Of a stretch of DNA of 59,943 nt, positions 6,323 through 59,943 are shown piece by piece. The DNA comes from Dethiosulfovibrio faecalis (lineage in GTDB: Bacteria; Synergistota; Synergistia; Synergistales; Dethiosulfovibrionaceae): positions 1 through 59,943 of the forward strand of contig NZ_JAKGUE010000015.1 of the NCBI RefSeq assembly GCF_021568795.1, given 5' to 3'. The stretch's first letter is position 1. Every line of letters starts with the position of its first letter. The translations under genes were made by a program, and so were the position numbers. The notes under the pieces were generated by a model. It saw only the letters and a program-made list of their open reading frames with translations. It was not told where the DNA came from and searched no databases.

Positions 6323-6325
6323 ATT

Positions 6326-6517: not shown

Positions 6518-6587
6518 GCATCGAGAGACACATGCTATACTGATAACAAGAACCAGAACTAAAAAACATCGCAAAGGAAGGTGCTTT

Positions 6588-40147: not shown

Positions 40148-40183
40148 GAAAGCCCGGAGCCCATCGATGGGCTCCGGGCTTTC
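40148..40183. terminator. Bidirectional terminator between the convergent glsA and citX genes
   Basis: AAAGCCCGGAGCCC-atcgat-GGGCTCCGGGCTTT. Confidence 0.65.
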
Positions 40184-40691: not shown

Positions 40692-40692
40692 C

Positions 40693-42096: not shown

Positions 42097-42099
42097 GGA

Positions 42100-43265: not shown

Positions 43266-43293
43266 AAAGCCTCCGACGCCGTAAAAGCCGGAA

Positions 43294-44574: not shown

Positions 44575-44602
44575 ATAGATCGTCTCCTCTGCTGTCGTTG
44601 TA

Positions 44603-45841
44603 TTACGCTCTGGCTATCCCGGCCTTTCTAGCCGCCTCCGACACCGCTTTGGCGACCGTCGGGACGACCCTCTCGTCCAAGGCCTCGGGAATTATCCTCT
44701 CGGAGGAAAGTTCATCGTCCGAAACCAGTCCGGCCAGTGCGTAGGCCGCGGCCAACTTCATCGACTCGTCGATATCGCTGGCCCTCACGTCCAAGGCCCC
44801 TTTGAATATGCCGGGAAAGCCGAGACAATTGTTGATCTGGTTCGGGAAATCGCTGCGCCCTGTGGCGACGACTGCGGCTCCTGCCTTCACGGCCTCGTCG
44901 GGGTATATCTCCGGGGTCGGGTTGGCCATGGCGAATATTATGGCATTGGAAGCCATCGAACGGACCATGTCGGCCGTGACCAATCCGGGACCGGATATGC
45001 CAAGGAAAACGTCCGCTCCCACGATGACGTCCGCCAGGGTCCCCGATTCCTTGCCCCTGTTGGTCTCCTCGGCCATCTCCTTCTTGATCCAGTTCATGTT
45101 GGTCTCTCTTCCCTCGTAGATGGCTCCGGCTCTGTCGCACAATATGACGTTACCGGCCCCTACGCTCTGAAGGAGCTTGCATATGGCTATACCGGCGGCA
45201 CCGGCACCGTTCATCACTATCTTGACATCCTCTATGGACTTACCGACCAATTTAAGTGAGTTGAGCAAACCGGCCAGGACTATTACCGCCGTTCCGTGCT
45301 GGTCGTCGTGAAAAACCGGTATATCCAGTCTTTCCTTAAGCTTTCTCTCGATCTCGAAGCATCGGGGGGCGGCGATGTCCTCCAGGTTGATGCCGCCGAA
45401 TCCGCTGGCTATCATGGCAGTGGTCTCAACTATCACGTCCACGTCCTTGCTGCCGACGCAGATCGGGAAGGCATCGACCCCGGCGAAACGCTTGAAGAGA
45501 ACCGCCTTGCCCTCCATCACGGGAAGTCCGGCGGCTGGACCTATATCGCCCAACCCCAGGACGGCGCTTCCGTCGGTTACGACTGCCACCATGTTTCCCT
45601 TGGTCGTGTAGGTATACACGTCCTCGGGATTTTCCTTGATCTTACGACAAGGCTCGGCGACGCCGGGCGTGTATACCACCGCCAGATCGTGCATATCTTT
45701 CACGGGAATTCGACTCTCCACGCTGAGTTTACCCTTGGCCTCGGCGTGGGCCTTCAACGCCTCCATATAGATACCCGAATCGCTCACAGAGATCTCTCCT
45801 TTCAGATCTAAACCGGTCTGTCGACAGGTTCTTACCGTCAT
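44603..45841 (-). CDS. Malic enzyme family protein (short form; CitM-like oxaloacetate decarboxylase / NAD-malic enzyme)
   Basis: VYTPGVAEPC, Rossmann GAGAAG. The true start is probably at MEALKAHAE (about 45766). Confidence 0.85.
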   Translation of the reverse strand: MTVRTCRQTGLDLKGEISVSDSGIYMEALKAHAEAKGKLSVESRIPVKDMHDLAVVYTPGVAEPCRKIKENPEDVYTYTTKGNMVAVVTDGSAVLGLGDIGPAAGLPVMEGKAVLFKRFAGVDAFPICVGSKDVDVIVETTAMIASGFGGINLEDIAAPRCFEIERKLKERLDIPVFHDDQHGTAVIVLAGLLNSLKLVGKSIEDVKIVMNGAGAAGIAICKLLQSVGAGNVILCDRAGAIYEGRETNMNWIKKEMAEETNRGKESGTLADVIVGADVFLGISGPGLVTADMVRSMASNAIIFAMANPTPEIYPDEAVKAGAAVVATGRSDFPNQINNCLGFPGIFKGALDVRASDIDESMKLAAAYALAGLVSDDELSSERIIPEALDERVVPTVAKAVSEAARKAGIARA

Positions 45842-45925
45842 GACAGCTACACTGTACCGGGATAAAGCCCGAACATCAACGTATTAGAACACAAAAAAGA
45901 CTTTTGGTCATTTCGGTCACGAAGA

Positions 45926-45962
45926 GACAAAAAAGCAGGCGAACCTAAACAGGTCCGCCTGC
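45926..45962 (-). terminator. Rho-independent terminator after the flagellin-like gene
   Basis: Minus strand GCAGGCGGACC-tgttta-GGTTCGCCTGC followed by TTTTTTGT. Confidence 0.5.
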
Positions 45963-45980
45963 CCCATAGATACCGCCACT

Positions 45981-47126
45981 CTATATAGACACCCTGGAGG
46001 AACTTCTGCCTTGATCAAACAACTCCTGAAGTAGTGCAGAATCATCCATGTCGAAGATCAGATCCCGAAAATAGGTATCCTCCACCCCGAGGTCGGAATA
46101 TATATCGTCCTTGAATAAAGAATCCACCTCGGAGAACATCTGACCGAGAGGGCTGGTCACGTCGATCATACGAAGATCGGAAAAGTCCGCTCCTAGGGAA
46201 AAGGCCATGGTCCCCAGGGGACCGTCCACCTTGTTCTGAAGGTCCAGCAAGTCCCTGTTCACCGATAGGTCCTTTCTCGCTCCACCTGAGTCGGAGGATT
46301 TCATTTTCTCCACGAATTCCTCGAACTTTGCGGACATGTCCCATATCTTCTTGAGATCGTCGTCTATCCTGTCCGTTATCTCGCCCGATCTCTCCGGATC
46401 GATCAGCATCATGTCGTCCTGGGCAAACATCGGCTCGGACGCCACTTCCGAAAGGCTCTTCCCAGATTCTCCGGCCTCCGCCAAGGCGGAGATGAGTTTG
46501 TCCGTGTGACTCTCCAAAACATTGCCCTTGCCCGTGGCGACAAGCGTAACATAATGTACCGTATCACCGTTTATCATTGGGGCACCTTCCTCTGGATCAA
46601 GTTTTCTGGCACCAAAGATCCGCAAGCCATCAAGACCTAGATTACCTAGATTGACTTTATTTAAAGACTGATCAGAGGAGAGATCCAAGAAGCAACCGTA
46701 AAATCCATATTCGTCGGATCCTTCAACTCCCTCACCTACTATGCTTTTCGCTCCGTCAGTAGGGAGGGTGGACTCGTAGGTCTTTCCGGCCAACTTCAAG
46801 GCCACAGAATGGATTTCCCTATGCAAATCTGACTGAAACTCAGCCATTCTGGACTGAAGCAACAGCCTCTCGTCCTCCGAAAGCGACTCCTCCCCTTTTT
46901 CGGAGATCAGCTTCATTCCCTGCATAACCTTGCCTATTCTCTCGAATCCATCCCTTATGGTGGACACCGCCTGACTTTCCTCCAAGGAAAGCTCCTCCGT
47001 GGACGAGGTCTTCAGAACACTTCCGCTCTCCAGCTTTCGACCTCCCACCCGGAGTCCTGCCGCTTGATATCCTAGGCTCTTTCCCCATATACCGGAAAGA
47101 TTATGATCGTTTCCGTATATCCTCAT
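45981..47126 (-). CDS. Hypothetical protein with weak flagellin/FlgL-like N-terminal helical pattern
   Basis: 381 aa. N-terminal MRIYGNDHNL...AAGLRV and EDERLLLQSRMAEFQSDL loosely resemble flagellin D0/D1 helices. The C-terminus does not match. No catalytic motifs. Confidence 0.3.
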   Translation of the reverse strand: MRIYGNDHNLSGIWGKSLGYQAAGLRVGGRKLESGSVLKTSSTEELSLEESQAVSTIRDGFERIGKVMQGMKLISEKGEESLSEDERLLLQSRMAEFQSDLHREIHSVALKLAGKTYESTLPTDGAKSIVGEGVEGSDEYGFYGCFLDLSSDQSLNKVNLGNLGLDGLRIFGARKLDPEEGAPMINGDTVHYVTLVATGKGNVLESHTDKLISALAEAGESGKSLSEVASEPMFAQDDMMLIDPERSGEITDRIDDDLKKIWDMSAKFEEFVEKMKSSDSGGARKDLSVNRDLLDLQNKVDGPLGTMAFSLGADFSDLRMIDVTSPLGQMFSEVDSLFKDDIYSDLGVEDTYFRDLIFDMDDSALLQELFDQGRSSSRVSI

Positions 47127-50762: not shown

Positions 50763-51521
50763 TCACTGAATCCACCTCTTTTTTATGGACCTGAGACTCA
50801 CGATGAAAAGCAGCGAAGCGAACCCGACCAGTGCCAGCCAATCCACCGGAACAGGTATGAGCCCTTCGCCCTCCAGTATCCACCTCATCAGGTCGACCCC
50901 ATAGGTAAGGGGCAACATGTAGGAGAGGGGACGGAGGAACACCGGCAGGCTGGAGACGGGAAAGAAGAGCCCGCAGAGAAACAGCATGGGAAAGCGGAAG
51001 AAGTTCGAGAGGGTCTGGGCCTCGAATACCTCTTTAACCGAAACGGCTATGAAAAGCCCCATGAAGGTGCAGACGACGGAAAGCACCGAACCGGCCGCCA
51101 GGATGGAGGGCACCGACGCCCCGGAAAGATCGTAGAAAAACGACGCCATCCAGAAGGGTATCATGCAGTTCAACAACCCGAAGGCTATGGCTCCGGAGGT
51201 CTTGGCCGCCATAAGCATCTCCAGAGGGAGAGGAGCCAGAAGAAGTCGATCGAAGGACCGTCCCTTCCTCTCGAAGGTCACGGTTACCGCCAACATGGAC
51301 GTCGTACCGAACAGGACGGACAGGGACATTATCCCCGGGAGGAGAGCCCTAACGTCCTCCATTGAACCTCCCGATCGGATCAGAAACATGGCGGTCCAGG
51401 CAAGGGGAAAGAGGATCCCCCAGCTGATGTTCGGGGGCTTGAGGTAATAGGCCCTGACGTCTTTGACGAGAATATTCCAGTAGGCTATCCACCATGAGGG
51501 TCTTATACCGGCTCTCATCAT
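50763..51521 (-). CDS. ABC-2 type transporter permease
   Basis: 252 aa, 6 TM, ABC-2 profile. 4-nt overlap with the ATPase. Confidence 0.7.
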   Translation of the reverse strand: MMRAGIRPSWWIAYWNILVKDVRAYYLKPPNISWGILFPLAWTAMFLIRSGGSMEDVRALLPGIMSLSVLFGTTSMLAVTVTFERKGRSFDRLLLAPLPLEMLMAAKTSGAIAFGLLNCMIPFWMASFFYDLSGASVPSILAAGSVLSVVCTFMGLFIAVSVKEVFEAQTLSNFFRFPMLFLCGLFFPVSSLPVFLRPLSYMLPLTYGVDLMRWILEGEGLIPVPVDWLALVGFASLLFIVSLRSIKKRWIQ

Positions 51522-52468
51522 CGTTCATCCTCCATCTCCGCCACCTGTAAAAAGACATCCTCCAGGGTAGACGCGATCCTCCGGGCCTCCAGAACCTCGA
51601 AGCCTCCGTCCTCCAGCGTTCTGACCATCGCCCCCACCGACAAGTAAACCTCGGACCTGGCCGTAACGGCACCCCGTCCGGACGGCTCGAACGAGACGGC
51701 CGGGAATGCCGATCGGAGGATGGATTCGGCCGAGGCGTCCCCTTCCCCGTCGAATCGTAGAAGTATGGCCTCTCCCTTTCGGTCTTTTTTGAGCAAACCC
51801 TCCATGGTGTCGGTGAGGACGATTCTACCGGAACGGATGAAAGCCACCCTATCGCAGAGCCTCTCTGCCTCCTCCAGATAGTGGGTCGTCAGAAACACGG
51901 TGGTTCCGTTCTCGTTCAGAGCCCTTATCATCGAACGAATGGTCCTGGCGCTGACGACGTCTATGCCGGTGGTCGGCTCGTCCAGAAAGAGCACCGAAGG
52001 CCTGTGGATCACCCCGGCGGCTATGGTCAGCCTGCGTCCCATTCCCTTCGAGTACCCTCCGAAACGTCTTTTCGCCGCATCTGCAAGGCCGACTGTATCG
52101 AGAAGCTCTTTAGCCCTGGCAATCCTCTCTTTTTTTCTCATTCCGTAGAGGGCTCCGCAAAAACAGAGGTTCTCGAAGCCGGTGAGCTCCGGATAAAGGG
52201 AGCTTTCGTCCGGGACCACCCCTATTAGGTGCTGGACCGGTTTTCTGTCCGACGTACAGTCCAGGCCTCCTAGCTCTATACTGCCTCCGTCCGGACGGGC
52301 CAGGCCGGTAAGCATGTTTATGGTCGTGGTCTTTCCCGCTCCGTTCGGCCCCAGAAAACCGAAGATCTCCCCCTTCTCCACCTCGAAGGAAACTCCCTTC
52401 ACGGCTTCCACCGATCCGAAGGACTTCGAAAGCCCTTTTACCTTTATTTCCGGATTTATCAAGAACAA
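51518..52468 (-). CDS. ABC transporter ATP-binding protein (ABC-2/DrrA-like exporter ATPase)
   Basis: Walker A GPNGAGKTTT, signature YSKGMGRRL, Walker B LFLDEPTTGID, and a C-terminal accessory domain. Confidence 0.85.
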   Translation of the reverse strand: MFLINPEIKVKGLSKSFGSVEAVKGVSFEVEKGEIFGFLGPNGAGKTTTINMLTGLARPDGGSIELGGLDCTSDRKPVQHLIGVVPDESSLYPELTGFENLCFCGALYGMRKKERIARAKELLDTVGLADAAKRRFGGYSKGMGRRLTIAAGVIHRPSVLFLDEPTTGIDVVSARTIRSMIRALNENGTTVFLTTHYLEEAERLCDRVAFIRSGRIVLTDTMEGLLKKDRKGEAILLRFDGEGDASAESILRSAFPAVSFEPSGRGAVTARSEVYLSVGAMVRTLEDGGFEVLEARRIASTLEDVFLQVAEMEDER

Positions 52469-53151
52469 TCCCCTCCTTTAGCGTCCAAAAGCCTGTAAAG
52501 ATTGACCGGACGACCTACGTCCCTATGAAGAGGCTCTACCGCAGCCCTGTTTATGGACACGAGATACTCGAGGTATCTCCTCGCTGTTACCCTGGAGACG
52601 CCGGCCCTAACTGCGACCTCGTCGGCCGAGAGGGCCCCATCCTCCCCCATGAGTATTGACCTTACCCGGTCCAGCTGAACCGACCCCAACCCCTTGGGAA
52701 GACATCTGTCCCTCTTCTCCCGAGATCCTCTCCTCATTATCCTGTCTATGGCTCCCTGGTCAAGGTCTCCCTTTTGTGCCCAATATAAAAGGTAGCCCTC
52801 CATAGCCTCTTTGAATCTCTCGTAGGTAAAGGGCTTCACTATATAGTCGAAGGCTCCGAAGCGCATAACGTCCCTGACGGTATCGGTCTCGTGAGCGGCG
52901 GAGACCACTATGACGTCCACGTTTCGACGTCTTCGACGGATTTCGTGCAGTGTCTCCAGACCGTCCAGCTCGGGCATGTAGATGTCCAGGATGACCAGAT
53001 CTACGCTTCTCTGTTCCAGAACCTTCAGGCCGTCCATCCCGTTCGCCCCGAGTCCTACGAGCTCGAAACCTGGTATGGATAGGACGAAACGTTTGTGAAT
53101 ATCCATTACCATCGGGTCGTCCTCGACTATGAGAACCCTTATATCGCTCAC
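52459..53151 (-). CDS. CitB/DcuR-family response regulator (REC + C-terminal HTH), no cognate kinase in window
   Basis: LIVEDDPMV...DLVILDIYMPELDG receiver domain. DYIVKPF and a C-terminal HTH typical of the CitB/DcuR/MalR family. Confidence 0.8.
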   Translation of the reverse strand: MSDIRVLIVEDDPMVMDIHKRFVLSIPGFELVGLGANGMDGLKVLEQRSVDLVILDIYMPELDGLETLHEIRRRRRNVDVIVVSAAHETDTVRDVMRFGAFDYIVKPFTYERFKEAMEGYLLYWAQKGDLDQGAIDRIMRRGSREKRDRCLPKGLGSVQLDRVRSILMGEDGALSADEVAVRAGVSRVTARRYLEYLVSINRAAVEPLHRDVGRPVNLYRLLDAKGGDCS

Positions 53152-53154
53152 GAT

Positions 53155-53508
53155 CTACTCCCTCCGTTCAAAAACACGGCCGTAACCTATATGGCATGAT
53201 CGACTAGAATCAAAGGGATCTTCCGTTATTGTAGATGTATTTAACAAAGGCTCGACAATCTCGCGCCACTTCTCCAAAGTAACTCGATTAATACCATAAT
53301 GGACGAAATACCCCCTTTTGTCGGCTATTACTACGTCCGCATTCCGTAGTATTCGAAGATGCTGAGACACCGCCGCCGCCGAGATCCCCAACTCACGGGC
53401 AATACTGTTTACACACAGAGAACGCTTCTTGAGCAACTTGACGATACGCACTCTTGTCTCAACAGATAAAACCTTGAAAATTCGGGCCATGTCTTCAGGT
53501 CGTTCCAT
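53155..53508 (-). CDS. ArsR/SmtB-family metalloregulatory transcription factor
   Basis: FKVLSVETRVRIVKLL...CVNSIARELGISAAAVSQHLRIL winged HTH. Start refined to MERPEDM, with a GGGGAGG RBS. Confidence 0.75.
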   Translation of the reverse strand: MERPEDMARIFKVLSVETRVRIVKLLKKRSLCVNSIARELGISAAAVSQHLRILRNADVVIADKRGYFVHYGINRVTLEKWREIVEPLLNTSTITEDPFDSSRSCHIGYGRVFERRE

Positions 53509-53555
53509 AAAAACCTCCCCAATTAAGTTATTGCGCATACACTATATATACCCAC

Positions 53556-53596
53556 AAAAAAATCGTCAAGAAGGAACCTCCTTGACGATTTTTTAA
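53556..53596 (-). terminator. Rho-independent terminator ending the 7-gene transporter/GTPase cassette, upstream of arsR
   Basis: ATCGTCAAGAAGG-aac-CTCCTTGACGAT flanked by A6 and T6 runs. Confidence 0.6.
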
Positions 53597-53612
53597 GACC
53601 CAATTTCACGGA

Positions 53613-54665
53613 CTATAGGGAGAAATCGGGAAGAACTTCGAGAGATTCTCCGTTTCGTAGGACTTCCCTACATCGATTCAAAAATCCATCGAGTTTCTCG
53701 AGGGTTTTCATATGTTCATTCTCTTCCTTGGAAGTCTGGAGAATTTTATCGATCCCGCCATTTCTTATACTTATCCTCTGAGATCCCATAAGAGCTAACA
53801 AGGGATCATGAGTAGCGACCAGAACGATCTTATCCCTCCTCACCAGCAGATCCATCGCTCTCTTCCTGTTTATCCCGGCGTTCTCTATCTCGTCTATCAG
53901 GACTATAGGAGACGAACTCAAAAAGGCTGTGTCGGCAATCATAAGAGCCCTAGATTGACCCCCGCTAAGAGCAGTCACCGGAATATCGGGAGAGAAGGAC
54001 TCACCGGCCAAAACATTGGCCTGTTCTATCACAGTACGGACCCTTTCCCTTCTATCCGGGACCATCCTGCTCTCGGCGTGCATGGACACGAACTCTCGAA
54101 CACTCAGATCCATCACGAAATTCATGTTCTGGGAGAGCTGTGCAACCAACTTATGCTCTAGGGAAAAACGCCATTTTCTCAGAGGCTTCTCATCGTCTAT
54201 CAGTATCCGTCTCCCCGTAGGGGTATCGCCCTGGGCCATCCACTCTATATCGGCCAAAAGACGGCTCTTCCCGGAGCCGGTGGGACCAACTATACAGACG
54301 ATTTCACCGGCTTTCATCTCCAACCTTACGTCTTCGGGGACACCGTTTTTATCCTTGCCCCCTAAAACCGTAACCTTTTTAACGGATAAATTTTGTCCTT
54401 TTTTGACGTCCTCCATCCGTTCTATGAACGTTACCAGACGATCTATCAACCCTTCTCTATCGAATCCTATATCCTCGAGAAAAACAGGACTCATCTCGGA
54501 AAAATATTCCTCAACTCTGACACAGGGATCCGCAGGAGGAAGGCCGTTGGCGTCAAAAAAGTCTCTTACGTAGGGATGTTCCTCGAAAAGAAGATCCATT
54601 CTAACATTGCGAAGACAGTAACCCACCGCGATATCCGTTGTTCTCACATCCCTCACTCCAGACAT
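53613..54665 (-). CDS. Atypical ABC-type ATPase with ~110-aa N-terminal extension of unknown function
   Basis: Walker A GPTGSGKS, signature LSGGQSRAL, Walker B VLIDEIENAG, H-loop ATHD. No membrane domain. 350 aa. Confidence 0.6.
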   Translation of the reverse strand: MSGVRDVRTTDIAVGYCLRNVRMDLLFEEHPYVRDFFDANGLPPADPCVRVEEYFSEMSPVFLEDIGFDREGLIDRLVTFIERMEDVKKGQNLSVKKVTVLGGKDKNGVPEDVRLEMKAGEIVCIVGPTGSGKSRLLADIEWMAQGDTPTGRRILIDDEKPLRKWRFSLEHKLVAQLSQNMNFVMDLSVREFVSMHAESRMVPDRRERVRTVIEQANVLAGESFSPDIPVTALSGGQSRALMIADTAFLSSSPIVLIDEIENAGINRKRAMDLLVRRDKIVLVATHDPLLALMGSQRISIRNGGIDKILQTSKEENEHMKTLEKLDGFLNRCREVLRNGESLEVLPDFSL

Positions 54666-55339
54666 ATCTTTCTCACACTGCCCATTTGATGCTCTTTACC
54701 TATCCTCGTCTCGCCAAGACAATAGGAACATAGAGCTGAGGGCATGGCGAAGCGAAGACTCCTGCCTGAGATCGACTCTATCTCCTCCCCCTCCATCAAC
54801 AGAGATACTAGTTCGCAGGCTCCTTGACCGGAGATACCTCCTACATGGAGAACACTACCCCCCGGGTTGGCCTGTCTCACTTTCAGAGCAAAGATTTCCC
54901 TTTCAGCCTGGGACACGATATCCCCCTTCGTGATGACGACGATATCCGCAAGCTTGAGCATGGGACCTATCTTCTTCGGGGTGTTGACCCCCATCAGATT
55001 ATCTATAACACAGACGGCAGTGACTCCTTGTATGTGAGGAGAGCATCTGTTACATAGTCCGGCACTCTCCAGGAACAGCACGTCGAAGGATCTCTCCATT
55101 CCCCAAGAAAGACACTCCTCCACGTTGCTCACGAAAAAATGGTCGGGACAAAGGCTTCCAGAAAGCCCGGTCCTGGCATCCACCCCGTTCCTTTCGTAGA
55201 GTTTTCTGTCTCCAGTGCTAAGACAGTCGAACTTAACAGCCCCTACGGACAGCCCATCTGATTTCATCTCCCAAGCCGCCTTCAGCACCACGGAGGTCTT
55301 TCCCGAAGAAGGAGGACCCGATACGGTTATAACCTTCAA
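54653..55339 (-). CDS. G3E-family P-loop GTPase (UreG/HypB-like metallochaperone) with CxxCxPH motif and Cys-containing C-terminal tail
   Basis: SGPPSSGKTS (G1), LFLESAGLCNRCSPH (ExxG + Cys/His metal motif; compare UreG ETGGCPH and HypB ENVGNLVCP), ITKGD (NKxD-like), and C-terminal CSYCLGE. Confidence 0.55.
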   Translation of the reverse strand: MKVITVSGPPSSGKTSVVLKAAWEMKSDGLSVGAVKFDCLSTGDRKLYERNGVDARTGLSGSLCPDHFFVSNVEECLSWGMERSFDVLFLESAGLCNRCSPHIQGVTAVCVIDNLMGVNTPKKIGPMLKLADIVVITKGDIVSQAEREIFALKVRQANPGGSVLHVGGISGQGACELVSLLMEGEEIESISGRSLRFAMPSALCSYCLGETRIGKEHQMGSVRKICLE

Positions 55340-55376
55340 AATAGCTTCATCCTTTCAAATCGACCCATTGCAGGAC

Positions 55377-56324
55377 CTACCAGACAACTCTCTCTAGAAG
55401 AGTGCCGGCGGTGATTCTGAGAAGCTCCTCGGCGGTCGCCCTTCCCGGATCGACCTTGAAAGGCAGGACTATGACCCTATCTCTTCTCACTGCCTTCAAT
55501 CCGGCCCACCGAGGATCGTTCGCCCATTTCTCCGCAACTCCTCTGCCCTTTTCTGGATCTACGAAAGAAGAAACTATAAATACCACGTCCGGGTCGGACA
55601 CAACGACGGTCTCTACGTCAAAGGGGATAAAACTCTCCCTATTCGATCCAGGGAGTCCATCGGGAACGATGTTCTCGATCCCTAGAGCACGCAGGATAGA
55701 GCCATAAACGGTAGCATTCTGAGCTACTGCCAATCTGTCGCCGTCTTTGACCATGACGGCGCTTCGAACATCCGTTTCCTCTCTTATCCTATCTCTGAGG
55801 GTCTTGGCGATACGCTCGGTTCTATCTGCATATTCCCTGGCTTTTCCCTCTCTGTGAAGCAGTCTGCCAAGAAATAGGACGGAATCCAGCATGGGATTCT
55901 CTCCCATCTTCGCAGGATCTACCAGGAACACGGGAACCCCATCCCGTCGAAGCACTTTGGCTACGTCTCCGTGAAAACGGACATGTCCGATAACTAAAGA
56001 GGGATTCAACCCGTATATCGACTCTATGTCTACATCGGGCTGCCTTCCAACCGATGGCAAAGCCATGCCCTTTTCTCTGATACGATATTCCTCAACCTTG
56101 CCTACGGGGGTTATGCCTATGGCGAAAAGTCCTTCCATAAGCAGAGGGTTCAGGGCTAAAACTTTATCTTTATTCTCGGACACGACAACCTCGTGCCCAA
56201 GATGGTCAACCTCGATCCAGAAGGCGTAAACCCGAGAAGACTGGGCAAAAAAGGACATAGAAAGCAAAATGATAAAAGCGAGCCTCCTCAACCCCTTATC
56301 AAAAAAAACCAAGAGAGAAGTCAT
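55377..56324 (-). CDS. Periplasmic class III substrate-binding protein (BtuF/FhuD/FecB-like)
   Basis: Signal peptide (LAFIILLSMSFFAQSSRVYA), 315 aa, typical two-lobe iron-complex/corrinoid SBP profile. Confidence 0.75.
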   Translation of the reverse strand: MTSLLVFFDKGLRRLAFIILLSMSFFAQSSRVYAFWIEVDHLGHEVVVSENKDKVLALNPLLMEGLFAIGITPVGKVEEYRIREKGMALPSVGRQPDVDIESIYGLNPSLVIGHVRFHGDVAKVLRRDGVPVFLVDPAKMGENPMLDSVLFLGRLLHREGKAREYADRTERIAKTLRDRIREETDVRSAVMVKDGDRLAVAQNATVYGSILRALGIENIVPDGLPGSNRESFIPFDVETVVVSDPDVVFIVSSFVDPEKGRGVAEKWANDPRWAGLKAVRRDRVIVLPFKVDPGRATAEELLRITAGTLLERVVW

Positions 56325-56968
56325 GACAAGCCGCCTCTTTTTCCATCTCCATTTTTATGGATCTCGACCCACTTACCGCTGTCGCCCTCTTCACCCTCTG
56401 ATATCATACGGAAGGAATCCACCCCGGCTTTTTCCAATAGGGCATCCTCTATCATGCGAGAAAAATCCTTGAAACAGGGACGAGTTTCCCCGGATCTTAT
56501 CAATCTATCCCGATTCGCCGCAACTATACGACGCCTCATAGAATCCGGAACATATCTGCCCAGTCCCCCTCCAATTACGGCGACTCCACCAGGCTTCAGT
56601 ATACGGTAGACTTCCGACAGCCCTTTCTCCGGCTCCTCCCAAAACCATATGGAACCCCGACTCATAACAAAATCGGCAAAACCGTCCTCAAAAGGAAGAG
56701 CTTTCACATCGGCCCGGACAAAAAGGGCCTCGTTGTCCGTCTCCGAAACCATGAATCGTTCCTTGGCCGACTGGAGCGCCTCCTCGTTCAGATCGACAAA
56801 ACAGACCGTCATATTCGTGATTTTTGCCAACTCCGTCCCCAGAAAACCAGGACCGGTTCCTATATCCACCGCTATCCCCCTGTTTAAACCGTAATCGTCG
56901 GCAAACTGTTGAACCAAAAAAGGGTAAATCGGCTCCAAAATAGAGTAGAAAACCGAAGGCCTATGCAT
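56321..56968 (-). CDS. Class I SAM-dependent methyltransferase
   Basis: Motif I VDIGTGPGFLG, post-I acidic residue (FVDLNEE), LKPGGVAVIGG. 215 aa. 4-nt overlaps on both sides. Confidence 0.7.
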   Translation of the reverse strand: MHRPSVFYSILEPIYPFLVQQFADDYGLNRGIAVDIGTGPGFLGTELAKITNMTVCFVDLNEEALQSAKERFMVSETDNEALFVRADVKALPFEDGFADFVMSRGSIWFWEEPEKGLSEVYRILKPGGVAVIGGGLGRYVPDSMRRRIVAANRDRLIRSGETRPCFKDFSRMIEDALLEKAGVDSFRMISEGEEGDSGKWVEIHKNGDGKRGGLS

Positions 56969-57881
56969 GAACGGGATCCCCTTCCAGATCTCGTAACCCC
57001 GACAGAAAATCCTCCCAACCCTCCCAGGTACTCTTCCAACGAGGCACGGGAAATCTACAGTTCTCAGAGATATCGACGACAGGCCATAGTCCCTGCTCCC
57101 CTAGATAGCGCTGAAAATCCTCGTCCATCAGCAAACGAAGAACCTCCTCCGAGAGGTCCGACGAAGCGTAACGACTCCAGGCCAAGACCTGAGGCAGAGG
57201 AACCGCTCCCTCGGAGACGGGAAGAATCTCCACCCTCCTCTGTTTCGCCATAGCAGAGAAGGAGACGTTGGATATCCCCATTTGGAACTCTCCCCTGGCA
57301 ACGGCCTGGATAATCTCAACGGGGGATCCACCAAACGAAAGCCCTTCGAGAAATAGAGGGAATTCGTCGGGCCAGGTCTTTTTCAGATAGGCCAGAACGA
57401 TCTTTGTTATGGGGGTATTCCCGTCCGGGAACAGGACCCCTTTTCTACGTCTAACCAGATCGTACCATGAACCGCTCAAAGCCTCGGGGCGAACCATACC
57501 CACGTTGTATATCGGTACCATTGGGACGACGAATACGGGATGAAGCCTCCTCGACGGATCCTCAAAGGAAGCCGATCCCGGATGAAGCGAGGGATTCCCC
57601 GTCCAAGACGGCCGAGGCAAAAGGAGATCCTCCCACTCATCGTTCAAAACCGAGAAATAGCTCCCGTGAGATAACATGACATCGGGAAGCTCCCCGTTTG
57701 AAATGCTTTCCAGCAACCAGTTTCTGGAGTGATCGAATCCAGGATTTTTGAAGGCAACGACCTGCCCCGTTCTGCTCTCGAAATCCATGAGCCGCTCCTT
57801 GAGATAGTCGACAATGTATCGTCTGGTGTTGATCGCTGTATGTATAAGAAAATCGGCCATCGATATCACCTTCCTTTTCAA
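56961..57881 (-). CDS. Solute-binding-protein-like (type 2 periplasmic-binding fold) protein lacking a signal peptide
   Basis: 306 aa. Pattern resembles ABC extracellular solute-binding proteins, but there is no hydrophobic N-terminal leader. Confidence 0.4.
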   Translation of the reverse strand: MKRKVISMADFLIHTAINTRRYIVDYLKERLMDFESRTGQVVAFKNPGFDHSRNWLLESISNGELPDVMLSHGSYFSVLNDEWEDLLLPRPSWTGNPSLHPGSASFEDPSRRLHPVFVVPMVPIYNVGMVRPEALSGSWYDLVRRRKGVLFPDGNTPITKIVLAYLKKTWPDEFPLFLEGLSFGGSPVEIIQAVARGEFQMGISNVSFSAMAKQRRVEILPVSEGAVPLPQVLAWSRYASSDLSEEVLRLLMDEDFQRYLGEQGLWPVVDISENCRFPVPRWKSTWEGWEDFLSGLRDLEGDPVHA

Positions 57882-57906
57882 TTTTCACTTTAGCCTCACC
57901 GCTTCA

Positions 57907-58911
57907 TCATTTTCTAAAGAGAAGGAGAATGAAGAAAGGCGCTCCCAGAACAGCTGTAACTACACCGACCGAAAGCTCCACGGGTTGAAAAATGGTCCTT
58001 GCCAAGGTATCCGAAAGGACCAGTAATATACCGCCGAGAAGAGCGCTAAGCACGAGAGAGTATCTACAATCGTTGCCTACCATAAGTCTGGCCAAATGAG
58101 GAGCCATCAATCCCACGAACCCTATTGTTCCCACCACGCTGACGGCACTTCCGGCAAGAATAGAGGCAACCGCCATGATGACTACCCTATAGAATTGGAC
58201 CCTTAGCCCAAGACTGCCGCCTATTTCATCGCCCAGGGAAAAGAGATTGACCTTTGGGGCCAGGGAAATTCCAAGAATAATTCCGATAAGACTGTAGGGA
58301 TATAGAAGATGAAAATAACCCCATCCCCTACCGGATAAGCTACCCAAGAGCCAACCGTAGGTCACATCGAGCTGATCGTTGTTCAAAAACATCAACCCTG
58401 AGGTCAGAGCGCCTAAAAGAGAGGAGACCGCCACGCCAGCCAATATGATCCTGACCGTGTCACCTTTACGGACCACCAGGGATAATCCATAGACCAAAGA
58501 CGCAGCGAAAAGGGCACCCAAAAAAGCTCCAGGAGGAATCCATTCTATCTTCCCGGGAAAGAGGACCATAACAGTCACGGCCATGAGACCCGCTCCGGCG
58601 TTAACTCCTATGATATGGGGAGAGGTCAAGGGATTCCGCAACACTCCCTGCAAGAGAGCACCGGCGACAGCGAGGTTCATTCCCGCAAGGAGAGCCGTTA
58701 AGATCCGAGGGAGGCGGATGTTATGGACGATCCTGTTGGCCAGAGGATTGGAACTCGCTCCGGAAAGAGCCCTCCAGATCTCCCCCAAATCAAAAGATAG
58801 GGTTCCTGCCGCCACCCCGATCAGACATACCATAAAGACCACCGCCAAACATAGGCATATAACCGCCAATTTATCCGTTCCTCTTCCAGAGACATCGATA
58901 CGAAACATCAA
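57907..58911 (-). CDS. FecCD-family ABC permease (BtuC-like)
   Basis: 334 aa, ~9 TM, FecCD profile. 4-nt overlap with the ATPase. Confidence 0.85.
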   Translation of the reverse strand: MMFRIDVSGRGTDKLAVICLCLAVVFMVCLIGVAAGTLSFDLGEIWRALSGASSNPLANRIVHNIRLPRILTALLAGMNLAVAGALLQGVLRNPLTSPHIIGVNAGAGLMAVTVMVLFPGKIEWIPPGAFLGALFAASLVYGLSLVVRKGDTVRIILAGVAVSSLLGALTSGLMFLNNDQLDVTYGWLLGSLSGRGWGYFHLLYPYSLIGIILGISLAPKVNLFSLGDEIGGSLGLRVQFYRVVIMAVASILAGSAVSVVGTIGFVGLMAPHLARLMVGNDCRYSLVLSALLGGILLVLSDTLARTIFQPVELSVGVVTAVLGAPFFILLLFRK

Positions 58912-59777
58912 TACGACTGGGAGACGGGACTATTCTCGACCCCGGGACAACATTCAGAAATACGCCCAGGGCAACGTAGATCACCAAACGGCACCACAAC
59001 CGGCCTACGACATTTCTTGAACCTACACACGTGGGTACCTACGCCGAAAACCTCACGAATCGATCGTTCGTTGATGACCTGCTCCAAGCGTCCCGCACTG
59101 TGAATCCTCCCATCTTTGAGAAGGTAGATAAAATCGGATATCTCAAGAGCATGATTGATATCGTGAAAAACCGAGACCACCGTCTTTCCGAAACTATCCC
59201 TCAGATCCCTCAGCACAGCCAACAACTCCCACTGGAACTTCAGATCCATGTAGGTCACAGGCTCGTCCAAAAGAACTATGGAAGTATCCTGGGCCAAGAT
59301 CATGGCTATCCAAGCCCTCTGCCTCTCTCCTCCGGAAAGCTCTTCCACCGATCTGTCGGCTATCTCCATAAGACTCATATATTCCAAAGCCCAAGACATC
59401 TTCTGGCGATCTTCCTCGGAGAAAAACCATCCTGATCTGTGATAGGGGCTCCTTCCCATTCCCACCAATTCGTATACAGACATGGACGGCACCTTGTCCT
59501 GAGCCTGAGGCAAAAACGCAATCAACCGTGACAACTCCCGAGAAGAATATTCCTCTAAAGCCCTTCCCATAATGCGGACACCTCTGTTCGAGACAGGGAG
59601 GAGACCACATAGACAACGAAGGAGGGTCGATTTGCCCGATCCATTGGGACCGATGAGAGAAATTATCCGTCCCCTAGAAGCGGAAAAGGAAATATTCCTG
59701 AGGATGGGCTCTCCTCCGTAATCGAAATCAAGGCCTTTTACTTCCAACACGTAGATCATCTCCTTCCAAAACATCAT
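58908..59777 (-). CDS. Iron-complex/cobalamin-type ABC ATP-binding protein (FecE/BtuD-like)
   Basis: Walker A GPNGSGKSTLL, signature LSGGERQRA, Walker B VLLDEP. Confidence 0.85.
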   Translation of the reverse strand: MMFWKEMIYVLEVKGLDFDYGGEPILRNISFSASRGRIISLIGPNGSGKSTLLRCLCGLLPVSNRGVRIMGRALEEYSSRELSRLIAFLPQAQDKVPSMSVYELVGMGRSPYHRSGWFFSEEDRQKMSWALEYMSLMEIADRSVEELSGGERQRAWIAMILAQDTSIVLLDEPVTYMDLKFQWELLAVLRDLRDSFGKTVVSVFHDINHALEISDFIYLLKDGRIHSAGRLEQVINERSIREVFGVGTHVCRFKKCRRPVVVPFGDLRCPGRISECCPGVENSPVSQSY

Positions 59778-59943
59778 CCAGCACAGACCATGTTTAAGAA
59801 CACTACACTAGTTAGAAGAGCAAAACAACATGAAGAGTACCAAGAATAAGAGAATAAGTCAACTTATCGAAAAAACTACGACGAAAACAAAAAACAAGGC
59901 GCCCCTAGCTGCGTTTTTATGCCGGATCGGGGGCGGAAACATA

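What the first reader, a model, noticed from the sequence alone, without database searches (positions are those of the whole stretch)
53613..59777. Seven-gene cassette: BtuCD/FecCDE-like importer + UreG/HypB-like G3E GTPase (CxxCxPH) + N-extended soluble ABC ATPase + SAM methyltransferase + signal-less SBP-like protein, next to ArsR
On the minus strand, tightly packed with 4-nt overlaps, the order is:
- FecE-like ATPase
- FecCD permease
- SBP-fold protein without a signal peptide
- class I SAM methyltransferase
- secreted class III SBP
- G3E GTPase whose ExxG motif is followed by LCNRCSPH, a Cys/His motif reminiscent of the Ni-binding CPH of UreG and the CH motif of HypB
- a 350-aa protein with a complete ABC ATPase domain, a 110-aa unknown N-terminal domain and no membrane partner

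A strong terminator follows, then an ArsR/SmtB metallosensor. I do not recognise the combination of a corrinoid/siderophore-type importer with a nickel-chaperone-like GTPase, a second soluble ABC-type ATPase, a methyltransferase and a cytoplasmic SBP-like protein as a described system. It could be an uptake-plus-insertion (or uptake-plus-modification) pathway for a metal or metallo-cofactor such as Ni, Co or a corrinoid.
Basis: partly seen in the sequence, partly recalled or inferred. Interest (0 to 1): 0.65.

Follow-up and report, generated by a model that had tools for sequence, protein, structure and literature searches.

The report
Metal importer with undescribed chaperone trio
A seven-gene operon in the anaerobe Dethiosulfovibrio joins a siderophore-type metal importer to a trio of cytoplasmic proteins (a binding protein, a nickel-chaperone-like GTPase and a membrane-less ABC ATPase); the trio is conserved across anaerobic bacteria and methanogens, I found no description of it, and it probably receives an imported metal and passes it on to enzymes.

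Summary
All seven minus-strand genes, their overlaps, the terminator and the downstream ArsR gene are present as described.

The GTPase is not an ordinary HypB or UreG. It scores far below both family cut-offs, and no hydrogenase or urease genes were seen nearby. It does keep the HypB/UreG-type Cys/His metal motifs, which are invariant across the family.

The neighbourhood is strongly conserved, but the conserved unit is a trio, not the seven genes:
- a signal-less SBP_bac_6 protein
- this GTPase
- the N-extended ABC ATPase

The GTPase–ATPase pair is adjacent in 79 of 80 species-level loci from about ten phyla. The binding protein is present in 78. Natural GTPase–ATPase fusion proteins exist. 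The unknown N-terminal domain of the ATPase is DUF1858-like.

The window carries an importer-linked subtype: FecCDE-type importer, trio, methyltransferase and ArsR. This subtype recurs, rearranged, in Synergistota, Bacillota, Geobacter relatives, Bacteroidota and Methanospirillum. Elsewhere the trio sits beside ModABC, ZnuA-type, FeoB or NitT-type importers, beside Mo/W genes, or beside Hcp and FprA.

No cobalamin riboswitch was found, which argues against corrinoid uptake.

Best reading: a two-nucleotide cytoplasmic metal hand-off module downstream of import. The metal is unresolved (Ni or Fe(II) versus Mo/W). No description was found in the literature searched.

The parts
58908..59777 (-). 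ABC importer ATPase (FecE/FhuC/BtuD class)
   Evidence: ABC_tran 107 bits. FecE model 244.5 bits, below its 375-bit equivalog cut-off, so it belongs to the class but is not FecE itself. Overlaps the permease gene by 4 nt.
57907..58911 (-). FecCD-family (type II) ABC importer permease
   Evidence: Pfam FecCD 318.9 bits over the full length. Nearest solved chains are FhuB (228.6 bits) and HmuU (175 bits).
56961..57881 (-). Cytoplasmic SBP-like protein (cSBP), short subtype without a DUF1858 domain. The database copy starts at the Met at 57860 (299 aa).
   Evidence: SBP_bac_6 31.4 bits and SBP_bac_11 21 bits. No hydrophobic N-terminus. Belongs to the neighbour family found in 78 of 80 loci. Its subfamily has conserved H7, T8 and H65. 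A low-confidence AF2 model (pLDDT 61.7) is closest to ferric-binding proteins.
56321..56968 (-). Class I SAM methyltransferase of unknown substrate
   Evidence: Methyltransf_11 70.9 bits. Below every NCBIfam cut-off. Nearest solved structure is the uncharacterised 3dlc, 105.8 bits. The same family lies beside the trio in 12 of 80 loci.
55377..56324 (-). Secreted class III substrate-binding protein of the importer
   Evidence: Peripla_BP_2 88 bits. Signal-peptide-like N-terminus. Nearest solved chains are the siderophore binders YfiY and HtsA.
54653..55339 (-). G3E P-loop GTPase of a distinct clade. Carries Walker A G8PPSSGKT, C64-P-D-H67, E91SAG then C96xxC99xPH102, T137KGD, and C204xxC207.
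   Evidence: cobW domain 41 bits. HypB 36.8 against 121.2 and UreG 28.3 against 204.2 bits. The Cys/His positions are invariant or at least 90% conserved in 63 sequences. In the alignment to UreG, CPDH lies on the CPH nickel motif. AF2 model pLDDT 82.9; Foldseek top matches are HypB 2hf8 and UreG 4hi0 and 5xkt.
53613..54665 (-). Soluble ABC ATPase (ABCx) with a DUF1858-like N-terminal domain (about residues 12-83) and a complete nucleotide-binding domain (about residues 100-320). Overlaps the GTPase gene by 13 nt.
   Evidence: ABC_tran 60.5 bits on residues 111-259. Walker A, LSGGQ, Walker B DE and the H-loop are conserved. N-domain against the DUF1858 of long cSBPs: hhalign probability 96.8%, E 3e-10. 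No hydrophobic segment. Adjacent to the GTPase in 79 of 80 loci. Fused to it in P0250 and P0251.
53556..53594 (-). Intrinsic terminator closing the seven-gene operon
   Evidence: 17-bp stem followed by a T-run; -20.9 kcal/mol; z = -5.14; none of 200 shuffles folded as well.
53155..53538 (-). ArsR/SmtB-family regulator, a separate transcription unit. The likely true start is the Met at about 53508, behind GGGGAGG. Candidate sensor residues are Cys in helix alpha-3 (LCV) and a C-terminal Cys-His.
   Evidence: NF033788 75.7 bits against a cut-off of 55; HTH_5 59.5 bits. Promoter-like TTGACG-17-TATAGT at 53569-53541. ArsR genes also flank the cassette in L003-L005 and L087.
59854..59867 (-). Perfect 6-2-6 palindrome ATAAGT-TG-ACTTAT overlapping a TTGACT -35-like hexamer upstream of the first gene. 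Candidate operator; coordinates are approximate.
   Evidence: Sequence read; palindrome scan. Function not tested.

Best explanation
The seven genes form one operon that couples import of a chelated transition metal to a nucleotide-driven hand-off of that metal in the cytoplasm.

**Shown**
- FecE, FecCD and the secreted class III SBP make up a complete type II ABC importer of the siderophore/heme/metal-chelate class.
- The signal-less SBP-like protein (cSBP), a distinct HypB/UreG-like G3E GTPase and a membrane-less ABC ATPase with a DUF1858-like N-domain (ABCx) form a trio. The trio is conserved across anaerobic bacteria and methanogens.
- The GTPase and ABCx are translationally coupled here. 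In some organisms they are fused into one polypeptide.

**Inferred mechanism**
1. The importer delivers the metal complex.
2. The cSBP captures it in the cytoplasm. The cSBP is FbpA-like, has His (or Cys in the long form) at the two N-lobe ligand positions, and is the most variable of the three proteins. It is therefore the likely specificity element.
3. The ABCx dimer uses ATP to dock on and open the cSBP.
4. The metal is passed to the invariant Cys/His site of the GTPase dimer: CPDH plus CxxCxPH, the HypB/UreG arrangement.
5. GTP hydrolysis releases the metal to client apo-proteins.
6. The methyltransferase modifies the emptied ligand or a co-imported compound.
7. The ArsR-type repressor sets expression.

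For this cassette the most likely cargo is a thiophilic divalent cation, Ni(II) or Fe(II). The data do not identify the metal.
For: **Gene content and operon structure:**

**The trio is conserved**
- The GTPase and ABCx are adjacent in 79 of 80 loci. The one exception is cut by a contig end.
- The cSBP family is present in 78 of 80 loci.
- The loci span Synergistota, Bacillota, Desulfuromonadales, Deferribacterales, Bacteroidota, Thermotogaceae, Spirochaetes, Fusobacteriota, Mycoplasmatota and Methanomicrobia.

**The proteins are coupled**
- Fusion proteins P0250 (613 aa) and P0251 (509 aa) exist.
- The DUF1858-like domain occurs on both ABCx and the long cSBP.

**The GTPase looks like a metallochaperone**
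- The Cys/His motifs are invariant.
- CPDH aligns with the UreG CPH nickel motif.
- The fold is closest to HypB and UreG.
- In HypB, the Ni site is built from a G3-loop Cys plus the CH motif (review).
- In 15 loci an 80-aa protein follows ABCx. It starts MH[E/D/Q]GC and has a zinc ribbon, so it resembles HypA.

**Link to import**
- 33 of 80 loci have an ABC importer within 8 kb, of FecCD, ModABC, NitT/TauT or ZnuA type.
- Further examples: Fusobacterium with ZnuA-type genes and Thermotogaceae with a FeoB-like gene.
- Importer-linked cassettes like the window's are found in L001-L005, L084, L086 (with a TonB-dependent receptor and TonB), L087 (with ArsR), L030, L040, L063/L074 and Methanospirillum L082.

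**The cSBP varies most and resembles iron binders**
- Median pairwise identity is 30% for the cSBP, 54% for ABCx and 65% for the GTPase.
- The cSBP model is closest to ferric-binding proteins.

**Precedent:** SufC is a soluble ABC ATPase that works in metallocluster assembly.
Against: - No biochemical or genetic data exist for any member, and no client enzyme is identified.
- The cSBP model is low-confidence (pLDDT 61.7). The FbpA likeness and the His-for-ligand mapping are therefore tentative.
- ArsR/SmtB repressors normally switch genes on when their effector is abundant. That logic suits detoxification better than nutrient uptake.
- The importer types beside the trio carry chemically different cargo (molybdate, divalent cations, chelates). 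This sits awkwardly with a single invariant Cys/His site for the cargo.
- 24 of 80 loci show none of the recurrent neighbour classes I scored (importers, Mo/W, nif, NO-stress genes, methyltransferase, the 80-aa protein).
- The role of the methyltransferase is a guess.
Confidence: 0.5

Rival explanations
1. The trio is a molybdenum/tungsten trafficking system. The cSBP binds molybdate, tungstate or a thio-form in the cytoplasm. The GTPase-ATPase engine passes it to cofactor synthesis (Moco, Wco or FeMo-co), by analogy with the nucleotide-dependent Mo delivery by the SIMIBI protein NifH. The window's FecCD-type importer would then bring in a Mo/W species. The precedent is the H. influenzae MolBC-A type II molybdate/tungstate importer (my own knowledge, not verified here).
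For: - 26 of 80 loci carry Mo/W genes within 7-8 kb. Seven carry nifV or nifH.
- The families were confirmed: ModA, ModD, HTH_17+PBP_like regulator; ModE, Mop/TOBE, aldehyde:ferredoxin oxidoreductase (AOR), MobA-like, FdhD, MOSC, homocitrate synthase, NifH.
- The arrangements are intimate and varied. In L023 and L053 a Mop gene follows ABCx directly. In L078 the HTH_17+PBP_like regulator directly precedes the trio on the same strand. In L040 it is divergent from a methyltransferase-trio-FecCD cassette.
- A Moco riboswitch precedes AOR upstream of the trio in L064.
- The cSBP gives weak SBP_bac_11 (ModA-family) hits.
Against: - Every characterised G3E GTPase handles a cation or a corrinoid, not an oxyanion.
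- The window has no Mo/W gene near the cassette.
- The secreted SBP and permease are nearest to siderophore and heme systems, and MolA is not among the hits.
- Many of the 26 loci come from two lineages, Pelosinus and Desulfuromonadales.
- Fusobacterium and Thermotogaceae link the trio to ZnuA-type and FeoB-like genes instead.
Confidence: 0.22
2. The cassette is a dedicated nickel (or cobalt) system. A NiuBDE-like FecCD-type importer for a Ni-chelate feeds a HypB/UreG-like Ni insertase that serves a non-hydrogenase, non-urease client. The NiuBDE precedent in H. pylori is from my own knowledge and was not verified here.
For: - The GTPase keeps both elements of the HypB Ni site, and its CPDH lies on the UreG CPH motif.
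- A HypA-like small protein with an N-terminal MH[E/D/Q] motif and a zinc ribbon follows the trio in 15 loci.
- An ArsR/SmtB metalloregulator is attached to the cassette in five genomes.
Against: - No Ni enzyme, Nik/Cbi transporter or hyp/ure gene is among the recurrent neighbours. Singleton neighbours were not fully annotated.
- The HypA match is weak (E about 1e-3) and covers only the zinc ribbon.
- Mo/W, Fe and NO-stress contexts dominate.
Confidence: 0.15
3. The system handles iron or iron-sulfur centres. The cSBP is a cytoplasmic Fe-binding protein. The Cys-rich GTPase dimer and a SufC-like ABC ATPase build, carry or repair Fe or Fe-S centres, for example after NO damage. The importer supplies a ferric chelate.
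For: - The cSBP belongs to Pfam SBP_bac_6. One source names a homologue 'ABC-type Fe3+ transport system substrate-binding protein'.
- The best structural matches are FbpA, SfuA, FutA and HitA.
- Hcp, FprA, YgbA_NO or Crp-family genes lie beside the trio in 20 of 80 loci.
- A FeoB-like gene and a Nitro_FeMo-Co protein lie directly upstream in L049 and L010.
- The importer is siderophore/heme-like, with a TonB-dependent receptor and TonB in L086.
- SufC is a precedent.
- The GTPase has eight conserved Cys.
- DUF1858 is reported near hcp and resembles the N-domain of the iron-centre repair proteins ScdA/RIC (my own knowledge, not tested).
Against: - No Fur-type regulator or Fur box was recognised.
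- ArsR-family iron sensors are not known.
- The cSBP model is low-confidence.
- The FbpA Tyr-Tyr ligands are not evident.
Confidence: 0.15
4. The cassette takes up corrinoids (vitamin B12-type cofactors) and loads or remodels them. It would be a BtuFCD-like importer plus a MeaB/CobW-like GTPase and a methyltransferase acting on the corrinoid.
For: - The importer is in the BtuCD/FecCD class.
- The G3E family includes MeaB and CobW.
- The methyltransferase hits the corrinoid-protein-associated CpaM model weakly, 27-39 bits against a cut-off of 180.
- A tetrapyrrole methylase follows the trio in Leptotrichia L068.
Against: - No cobalamin riboswitch was found in the window or in 18 related loci, including seven importer-linked cassettes.
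- The BtuF, BtuC and BtuD models score far below their cut-offs, and siderophore and heme proteins score higher.
- MeaB scores 16.9 against 240.75 bits.
- The GTPase has a HypB/UreG-type Cys/His site.
Confidence: 0.05
5. The cassette detoxifies by import, on the model of the mer operon. An ArsR-derepressed operon takes up a toxic thiophilic metal or metalloid. Cys-rich proteins hand it on, and the SAM methyltransferase methylates it for volatilisation or export.
For: - ArsR-family regulation works by derepression when the effector is present (established knowledge).
- The methyltransferase is most similar, at low scores, to ArsM-type and UbiE-type enzymes.
- The ArsR proteins of L003 have Cys-rich C-terminal tails.
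Against: - Most trios have neither a methyltransferase nor an ArsR (68 of 80 loci lack the methyltransferase).
- The methyltransferase has only two Cys and is below all ArsM cut-offs.
- The high conservation of the trio across anaerobes suggests a housekeeping role.
Confidence: 0.05
6. The genes are a chance juxtaposition: an ordinary siderophore importer that happens to lie next to unrelated genes.
For: Each protein alone belongs to a common superfamily.
Against: - The genes overlap.
- The same gene set recurs in shuffled order across phyla.
- The GTPase and ATPase are adjacent in 79 of 80 loci and are sometimes fused.
Confidence: 0.02

Closest known systems
HypB (with HypA/SlyD) and UreG (with UreDEF): G3E GTPase nickel insertases
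   Same: - Same G3E fold and motifs: Walker A, ExxG, (N/T)KxD.
- Cys/His ligands at the CH/CPH position and in the G3 loop.
- Best structural matches are 2hf8, 4hi0 and 5xkt.
- A HypA-like small protein follows the trio in 15 loci.
   Different: - About 19-20% identity in the structural alignments to HypB and UreG, and far below both family cut-offs.
- An extra CxxC after ExxG and a C-terminal CxxC.
- No hyp, ure or hydrogenase genes were seen nearby.
- Obligately paired, and sometimes fused, with an ABC ATPase and a cytoplasmic SBP. HypB and UreG have no such partners.
COG0523 GTPases (CobW, ZigA/ZagA, YeiR, Nha3), often encoded beside ZnuABC
   Same: G3E metallochaperones encoded beside metal importers. 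In Fusobacterium the trio sits next to a ZnuA-type importer.
   Different: - No CxCC motif and no CobW_C domain.
- Different partner proteins.
Type II ABC importers (FecBCDE, FhuBCD, HmuTUV, BtuCDF; NiuBDE and MolBC-A from my own knowledge)
   Same: FecCD permease, FecE-class ATPase and a secreted class III SBP.
   Different: - Below every equivalog cut-off, so the substrate is unknown.
- The operon carries four extra cytoplasmic proteins that these systems lack.
SufBC2D iron-sulfur scaffold (SufC is a soluble ABC ATPase)
   Same: A membrane-less ABC ATPase working with soluble partners in metal-centre handling.
   Different: - No SufB or SufD homologue.
- The partners here are a G3E GTPase and an SBP-fold protein.
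- The ATPase has a DUF1858-like N-domain.
Ferric-binding proteins (FbpA, SfuA, FutA, HitA)
   Same: Same Pfam family region (SBP_bac_6) and closest fold for the cSBP.
   Different: - The cSBP is cytoplasmic (no signal peptide) and has no cognate permease.
- It has no detectable sequence similarity to solved structures.
- The putative ligand positions carry His or Cys instead of His/Glu/Tyr/Tyr. This mapping was done by eye.

Membership tests
HypB (TIGR00073) | Whole-protein score at or above the curated cut-off (121.2 bits) | tested here: not met
   36.8 bits.
HypB (TIGR00073) | G3E motifs, plus a CH-type motif and a G3-loop Cys forming the Ni site at the dimer interface | tested here: met
   G8PPSSGKT, E91xxG, T137KGD, C64/H67 and C96/C99 are invariant or nearly so. 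The definition of the site is from the review. Metal binding itself was not tested.
HypB (TIGR00073) | Encoded with hyp or [NiFe]-hydrogenase genes | tested here: not met
   None in the window around the cassette. None among the neighbour families that recur in the 80 loci. Singleton neighbours were not all annotated.
UreG (TIGR00101) | Score at or above cut-off (204.2 bits) and a CPH motif | tested here: not met
   28.3 bits. The motif is CPDH, aligned on the CPH of 5xkt. No ure genes nearby.
COG0523 / CobW | CxCC motif and a C-terminal CobW_C domain | tested here: not met
   No CxCC in the sequence. Only the N-terminal cobW domain is hit, on residues 3-163.
MeaB/ArgK (TIGR00750) | Score at or above cut-off (240.75 bits) | tested here: not met
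   16.9 bits, P-loop region only.
Type II ABC importer (FecCD class) | FecCD permease, a cognate ATPase and a secreted class III SBP in one operon | tested here: met
   FecCD 318.9 bits, ABC_tran 107 bits and Peripla_BP_2 88 bits, with a signal-peptide-like N-terminus.
Fe(III)-dicitrate, hydroxamate, heme or B12 importers (specific equivalogs) | Score at or above the equivalog cut-off for FecE/FecCD, FhuB/C/D, heme proteins or BtuC/D/F | tested here: not met
   All are below cut-off. Examples: FecE 244 against 375, FecD 228 against 406, BtuF 22.6 against 234.
Cobalamin uptake operon | Cobalamin riboswitch in the leader (usual in bacterial btu operons; my own knowledge) | tested here: not met
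   No Rfam hit in the window. Only 166 nt upstream of the first gene are available there. None in 18 related loci.
Canonical ABC transporter ATPase (for the 350-aa protein) | A cognate membrane permease encoded with it | tested here: not met
   The importer has its own ATPase. In 47 of 80 loci no ABC importer lies within 8 kb. The protein has no hydrophobic segment. It is fused to the GTPase in P0250 and P0251.
DUF1858 (PF08984) for the N-domain of the 350-aa ATPase | Match to the family profile | tested here: inconclusive
   No direct Pfam hit, even at E = 1. Profile-profile comparison with the DUF1858 domain of long cSBPs gives probability 96.8%, E 3e-10.
SufBCD-type soluble ABC system | SufB/SufD partners | tested here: not met
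   None found among the neighbours.
ArsR/SmtB metalloregulators | Score at or above the NF033788 cut-off (55 bits) | tested here: met
   75.7 bits. The effector and the sensor-site type remain undetermined: below cut-off for TsoR, CmtR and BigR.
Anti-phage defence systems (PADLOC) | Full-length match to a defence protein model | tested here: not met
   Only partial generic ABC and methyltransferase matches. None for the GTPase or the cSBP.

The most novel reading that the evidence does not exclude
The cSBP-GTPase-ABCx trio is a previously unrecognised fifth branch of G3E metallochaperone systems. It would also be the first in which a G3E GTPase works as a two-nucleotide engine with a soluble ABC ATPase (fused to it in some organisms) and a cytoplasmic substrate-binding protein. 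The trio would act as a general post-import metal-distribution hub of anaerobic bacteria and methanogens. Exchangeable cSBP variants would match it to different importers (FecCD, ModABC, ZnuA-type, FeoB, NitT).
Probability: 0.35. Interest if true: 0.85.

Novelty: new variant of a known kind. Interest (0 to 1): 0.7.

Why it matters
How cells route a metal from the importer to the correct enzyme is only partly understood. Reviews list just four G3E GTPase subfamilies.

This module would add a fifth, with an architecture not seen before: GTPase, ABC ATPase and a cytoplasmic binding protein.

It is widespread in strict anaerobes. Carriers include human oral and gut genera (Fusobacterium, Peptostreptococcus, Leptotrichia), metal reducers (Geobacter, Desulfuromonas), acetogens and methanogens. 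Their metabolism depends on Ni, Fe-S, Mo and W enzymes, and sulfide makes metals scarce in their habitats.

Identifying the cargo and the clients could explain how these organisms supply nitrogenase, tungsten and molybdenum enzymes or NO-stress proteins with metal. Genetically tractable carriers exist, so the question is testable.

Tried and rejected
- **MolBC-A-like molybdate importer.** The secreted SBP and the permease hit siderophore and heme systems. MolA was not among the hits, and HI1471 ranked only fourth for the permease. Not supported.
- **Riboswitch control.** The whole window and 18 related loci were scanned against Rfam. The only relevant hit is one Moco riboswitch, in front of an aldehyde:ferredoxin oxidoreductase (AOR) gene in L064.
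- **Structure of the window's cSBP.** Only seven homologues were retrievable by the word-indexed search. AF2 gave pLDDT 61.7, so the pocket could not be inspected. The Foldseek result is only indicative. A profile search of solved structures found nothing.
- **Literature.** Searches on DUF1858, G3E with ABC, cytoplasmic SBP with G3E, TunR, ModD with GTPase, Hcp with CobW, and G3E subfamilies found no description of the system.
- **Plasmid carriage.** The single hit is a Fusobacterium chromosome filed as a plasmid.
- **Defence system.** PADLOC gave only generic partial matches.
- **TonB-dependent receptor subtype in L086.** The call was uninformative: weak heme-type hits only.
- **Upstream context of this contig.** The look-up returned only a 2.3-kb copy.
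- **Model coordinates.** They are not exposed by the tools, so I could not measure whether the Cys/His motifs cluster in the GTPase model.

Full report
**1. Observation**

The region 53613-59777 holds seven minus-strand ORFs exactly as described. The junctions are overlaps of 4, 8, 4 and 13 nt, or gaps of 25 and 37 nt.

Profile searches give the following:
- a FecE-class ATPase: ABC_tran 107 bits; FecE model 244 bits against a cut-off of 375
- a FecCD permease: 319 bits
- an SBP_bac_6 protein: 31 bits, with no NCBIfam hit
- a class I SAM methyltransferase: Methyltransf_11 71 bits, below every specific cut-off
- a Peripla_BP_2 class III binding protein: 88 bits
- a protein with a cobW/HypB/UreG nucleotide-binding domain: 41 bits
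- a 350-aa protein whose residues 111-259 are an ABC ATPase domain and whose first 110 residues hit nothing

Only the class III binding protein has a signal-peptide-like N-terminus.

The operon ends in a strong intrinsic terminator (-20.9 kcal/mol, z = -5.1). An ArsR/SmtB regulator with its own promoter-like site follows.

The window has no Rfam match at all. It comes from Dethiosulfovibrio sp. F2B / D. faecalis, in the Synergistota. The cassette region has a lower G+C (about 0.51) than most of the window (0.53-0.59).

**2. The GTPase is neither HypB nor UreG, but it keeps their metal site**

It scores 36.8 bits on HypB (cut-off 121.2), 28.3 on UreG (204.2) and 16.9 on MeaB (240.75). It has no CxCC motif and no CobW_C domain, so it is not a COG0523 protein.

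In 63 homologues the following are invariant or at least 90% conserved:
- Walker A
- C39
- C64-P-D-H67
- E91-S-A-G-L-C96-x-R-C99-x-P-H102
- T137-K-G-D
- C204-S-Y-C207

In the alignment to Klebsiella UreG, CPDH falls on the CPH nickel motif. The AF2 model (pLDDT 82.9) is closest to M. jannaschii HypB, H. pylori UreG and K. pneumoniae UreG, at about 19-20% identity. The HypB nickel site is built from a G3-loop Cys and the CH motif (review). Both elements are present here.

A profile search of 1.84 billion cluster representatives returned 95 representatives at E <= 1e-30 and 337 at E <= 1e-10. The family is therefore compact and distinct. Two recent reviews list only UreG, HypB, MeaB and COG0523 as G3E subfamilies.

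**3. The conserved unit is a trio**

A scan of one genome per species returned 299 relatives. I examined the best 80 loci, which are 61-82% identical to the window's GTPase. They come from:
- Synergistota
- Bacillota, including Negativicutes, Tissierellia and Peptostreptococcus
- Desulfuromonadales (Geobacter and relatives)
- Deferribacterales
- Bacteroidota
- Thermotogaceae
- Spirochaetes
- Leptotrichia and Fusobacterium
- Mycoplasmatota

Methanospirillum and other Methanomicrobiales also carry the system.

The N-extended ATPase (ABCx) is adjacent to the GTPase in 79 of 80 loci. The exception is cut by a contig end.

A third family lies beside the pair in 78 of 80 loci. It is a signal-less protein of about 410 aa, made of an N-terminal DUF1858 domain (62 bits) and an SBP_bac_6 domain (272 bits). 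The window's signal-less SBP is a short member of this family (299-306 aa) that lacks DUF1858. The same short subtype occurs in other Synergistota, in Bacillota (L003-L005, L032, L075) and in Methanospirillum.

The unknown N-terminal domain of ABCx is itself DUF1858-like (hhalign probability 96.8%, E 3e-10).

Natural GTPase-ABCx fusion proteins exist: P0250 (613 aa) and P0251 (509 aa).

Median pairwise identity is 65% for the GTPase, 54% for ABCx and 30% for the binding protein. The picture is a conserved engine with a variable binding component.

**4. What accompanies the trio**

The window's importer-linked arrangement recurs in shuffled gene order:

| Locus | Organism | Arrangement |
|---|---|---|
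| L001, L002, L084 | Synergistota | Same gene set as the window; L001 and L084 also carry a second class III SBP |
| L003-L005 | Bacillota | ArsR first |
| L087 | Clostridium aceticum | FecE, class III SBP, FecCD, cSBP, GTPase, ABCx, ArsR |
| L086 | A Geobacter relative | GTPase, ABCx, methyltransferase, class III SBP, TonB-dependent receptor, TonB, FecCD, FecE, cSBP |
| L030, L040, L063, L074 | Various | Further shuffled versions |
| L082 | Methanospirillum | Class III SBP, GTPase, ABCx, cSBP, plus a second paralogous trio inside a NitT/TauT importer operon |

Counts over the 80 loci, within 7-8 kb of the GTPase:

| Neighbour class | Loci |
|---|---|
| Any ABC importer | 33 |
| ModABC | 16 |
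| FecCD type | 11-12 |
| NitT/TauT type | 5 |
| ZnuA type | 2 |
| Mo/W genes (ModA/B/D/E, HTH_17+PBP_like regulator, Mop, aldehyde:ferredoxin oxidoreductase (AOR), MobA-like, FdhD, MOSC; confirmed) | 26 |
| nifV or nifH | 7 |
| Hcp, FprA, YgbA_NO or Crp-family genes | 20 |
| The methyltransferase family | 12 |
| 80-aa protein directly after ABCx | 15 |

The 80-aa protein starts MH[E/D/Q]GC and has a zinc ribbon and a TPCHAFD motif. It resembles HypA.

Further single cases:
- Fusobacterium vincentii: the trio is followed by DUF6162, two ZnuA genes, an ABC ATPase gene and two further ORFs that I read as the permeases (not profile-searched).
- A Thermotogaceae MAG: a FeoB-like gene lies directly upstream.
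- L010: a Nitro_FeMo-Co protein lies directly upstream.
- Leptotrichia L068: a tetrapyrrole methylase lies downstream.

No riboswitch precedes the trio or the cassettes in the 18 loci scanned. The only relevant hit is a Moco riboswitch before AOR in L064.

**5. Interpretation**

These points are shown:
- The operon encodes a complete type II ABC importer of the siderophore/heme/chelate class. The nearest solved proteins are YfiY, HtsA, FhuB and HmuU.
- It also encodes a tightly coupled cytoplasmic trio that is conserved across anaerobes.

The rest is inferred. Every characterised G3E GTPase is a metallochaperone or a cofactor-loading factor. This one keeps a HypB/UreG-type Cys/His site. The trio sits beside metal importers of several families. 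I therefore propose a post-import hand-off module:
1. The cSBP captures the incoming species.
2. The ABCx dimer, driven by ATP, docks on it and opens it.
3. The metal moves to the Cys/His site of the GTPase dimer.
4. GTP hydrolysis releases the metal to clients.

SufC is the precedent for a soluble ABC ATPase in metal-centre assembly.

The low-confidence cSBP model is closest to ferric-binding proteins. The short subfamily conserves His at the ends of the first two beta-strands. By eye these correspond to the N-lobe ligand positions of FbpA. The long form has an invariant P-C-P at the first of these positions. This mapping is tentative.

**6. Which metal**

The data do not decide.
- **Ni or Co.** The GTPase site and the HypA-like partner point this way. 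H. pylori NiuBDE would be a precedent for FecCD-type nickel uptake (my own knowledge).
- **Fe or Fe-S.** The FbpA-like cSBP, the siderophore-type importer with TonB, FeoB, Nitro_FeMo-Co, Hcp, FprA and the eight conserved Cys point this way.
- **Mo/W.** The most frequent neighbourhood points this way, including Mop and an HTH_17+PBP_like regulator inside the same operon (L023, L053, L078).
- **Corrinoid.** This is unlikely: there is no cobalamin riboswitch and the Btu models score poorly.

ArsR regulation works by derepression when the effector is present, which is odd for nutrient uptake. This leaves two possibilities open: an import-for-detoxification reading, and a sensor of sulfide or persulfide that switches on scavenging when sulfide makes metals scarce. 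The second is speculation.

**7. Comparison and novelty**

The system works like the HypAB, UreDEFG and COG0523 metallochaperone systems and like SufBCD. It is a member of none of them, because defining features were tested and not met (see the membership table). I found no curated model or paper for it. The methyltransferase's nearest solved relative is the uncharacterised structure 3dlc. PADLOC gives only generic partial hits.

I rate it a new variant of a known kind (nucleotide-dependent metallochaperone systems) with an unprecedented architecture.

**8. Verdict**

The functional core is the trio, however, and the cargo is unresolved.

Interest is 0.7. A distinct and very widespread G3E clade coupled to an ABC ATPase and a cytoplasmic SBP would surprise specialists, and it is directly testable in cultured carriers.

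Noticed in passing
window 40182-47126 and 52459-53151: A citrate-fermentation cluster lies next to the cassette on the ArsR side of it: CitX, CitF, a CitE-like lyase, a 2-hydroxycarboxylate transporter and malic enzyme. The DcuR/DpiA-like response regulator right after ArsR probably belongs to it rather than to the metal cassette.
   Followed up: partly
window 50763-52468: An ABC-2 type exporter pair (ATPase and ABC2_membrane permease) lies between the response regulator and a glutamate-synthase-like Fe-S flavoprotein.
   Followed up: no
window 52001-58000: The cassette region has G+C of about 0.51, against 0.53-0.59 over most of the window. The GTPase is also unusually conserved between phyla (61-82% identity). 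Together these suggest horizontal acquisition.
   Followed up: no
L014, L019, L020, L025, L027, L037, L047, L048, L050, L054, L061, L066, L072, L079, L080 (about 1.7 kb after the GTPase start): An 80-aa protein lies directly after the ATPase gene. It has an N-terminal MH[E/D/Q]GC motif, a CxxC...CPxC zinc ribbon and a conserved TPCHAFD motif. It looks like a miniature HypA-like metallochaperone and is absent from the window.
   Followed up: partly
P0250 (613 aa), P0251 (509 aa), P0277 (271 aa): Natural fusions of the GTPase with the ABC ATPase. In addition, a distant GTPase paralogue has a C-terminal NCGKCGYKTC...CP extension. By eye this resembles the RnfB/CoFeSP-type Fe-S cluster-binding domain; it was not profile-tested.
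   Followed up: partly
L082 10001-12758 and 14316-19268: Methanospirillum stamsii has two trios 1.6 kb apart. One follows a class III SBP gene. The other lies inside a NitT/TauT importer operon and has a short ATPase (252 aa) without the N-domain.
   Followed up: no
L003 about 2900-3300; L004 2778-3060; L005 4202-4485: Three copies of a GGTTAGC-N4-GCTAACC-like palindrome lie between arsR and the first importer gene. AGATAAG...CTTATCT repeats flank the arsR promoter. The window has ATAAGT-TG-ACTTAT upstream of fecE. All are possible operators.
   Followed up: partly
L064 4953-5075: A Moco/Wco riboswitch (56 bits) lies in front of an aldehyde:ferredoxin oxidoreductase gene. Downstream of that gene, in the same orientation, come a 234-aa protein, a 145-aa protein and the trio.
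   Followed up: no
L088 (NZ_CP084075.1): A 2.1-Mb Fusobacterium vincentii replicon is filed in the plasmid collection as 'plasmid pSB055A'. The collection lists a single annotated feature for the whole record. It is evidently the chromosome.
   Followed up: no
L048 and L061, about 5291-7171: MobA-like, FdhD and MOSC genes lie just upstream of a trio, 80-aa protein and Hcp operon. This links Moco maturation genes with hybrid-cluster-protein genes.
   Followed up: no
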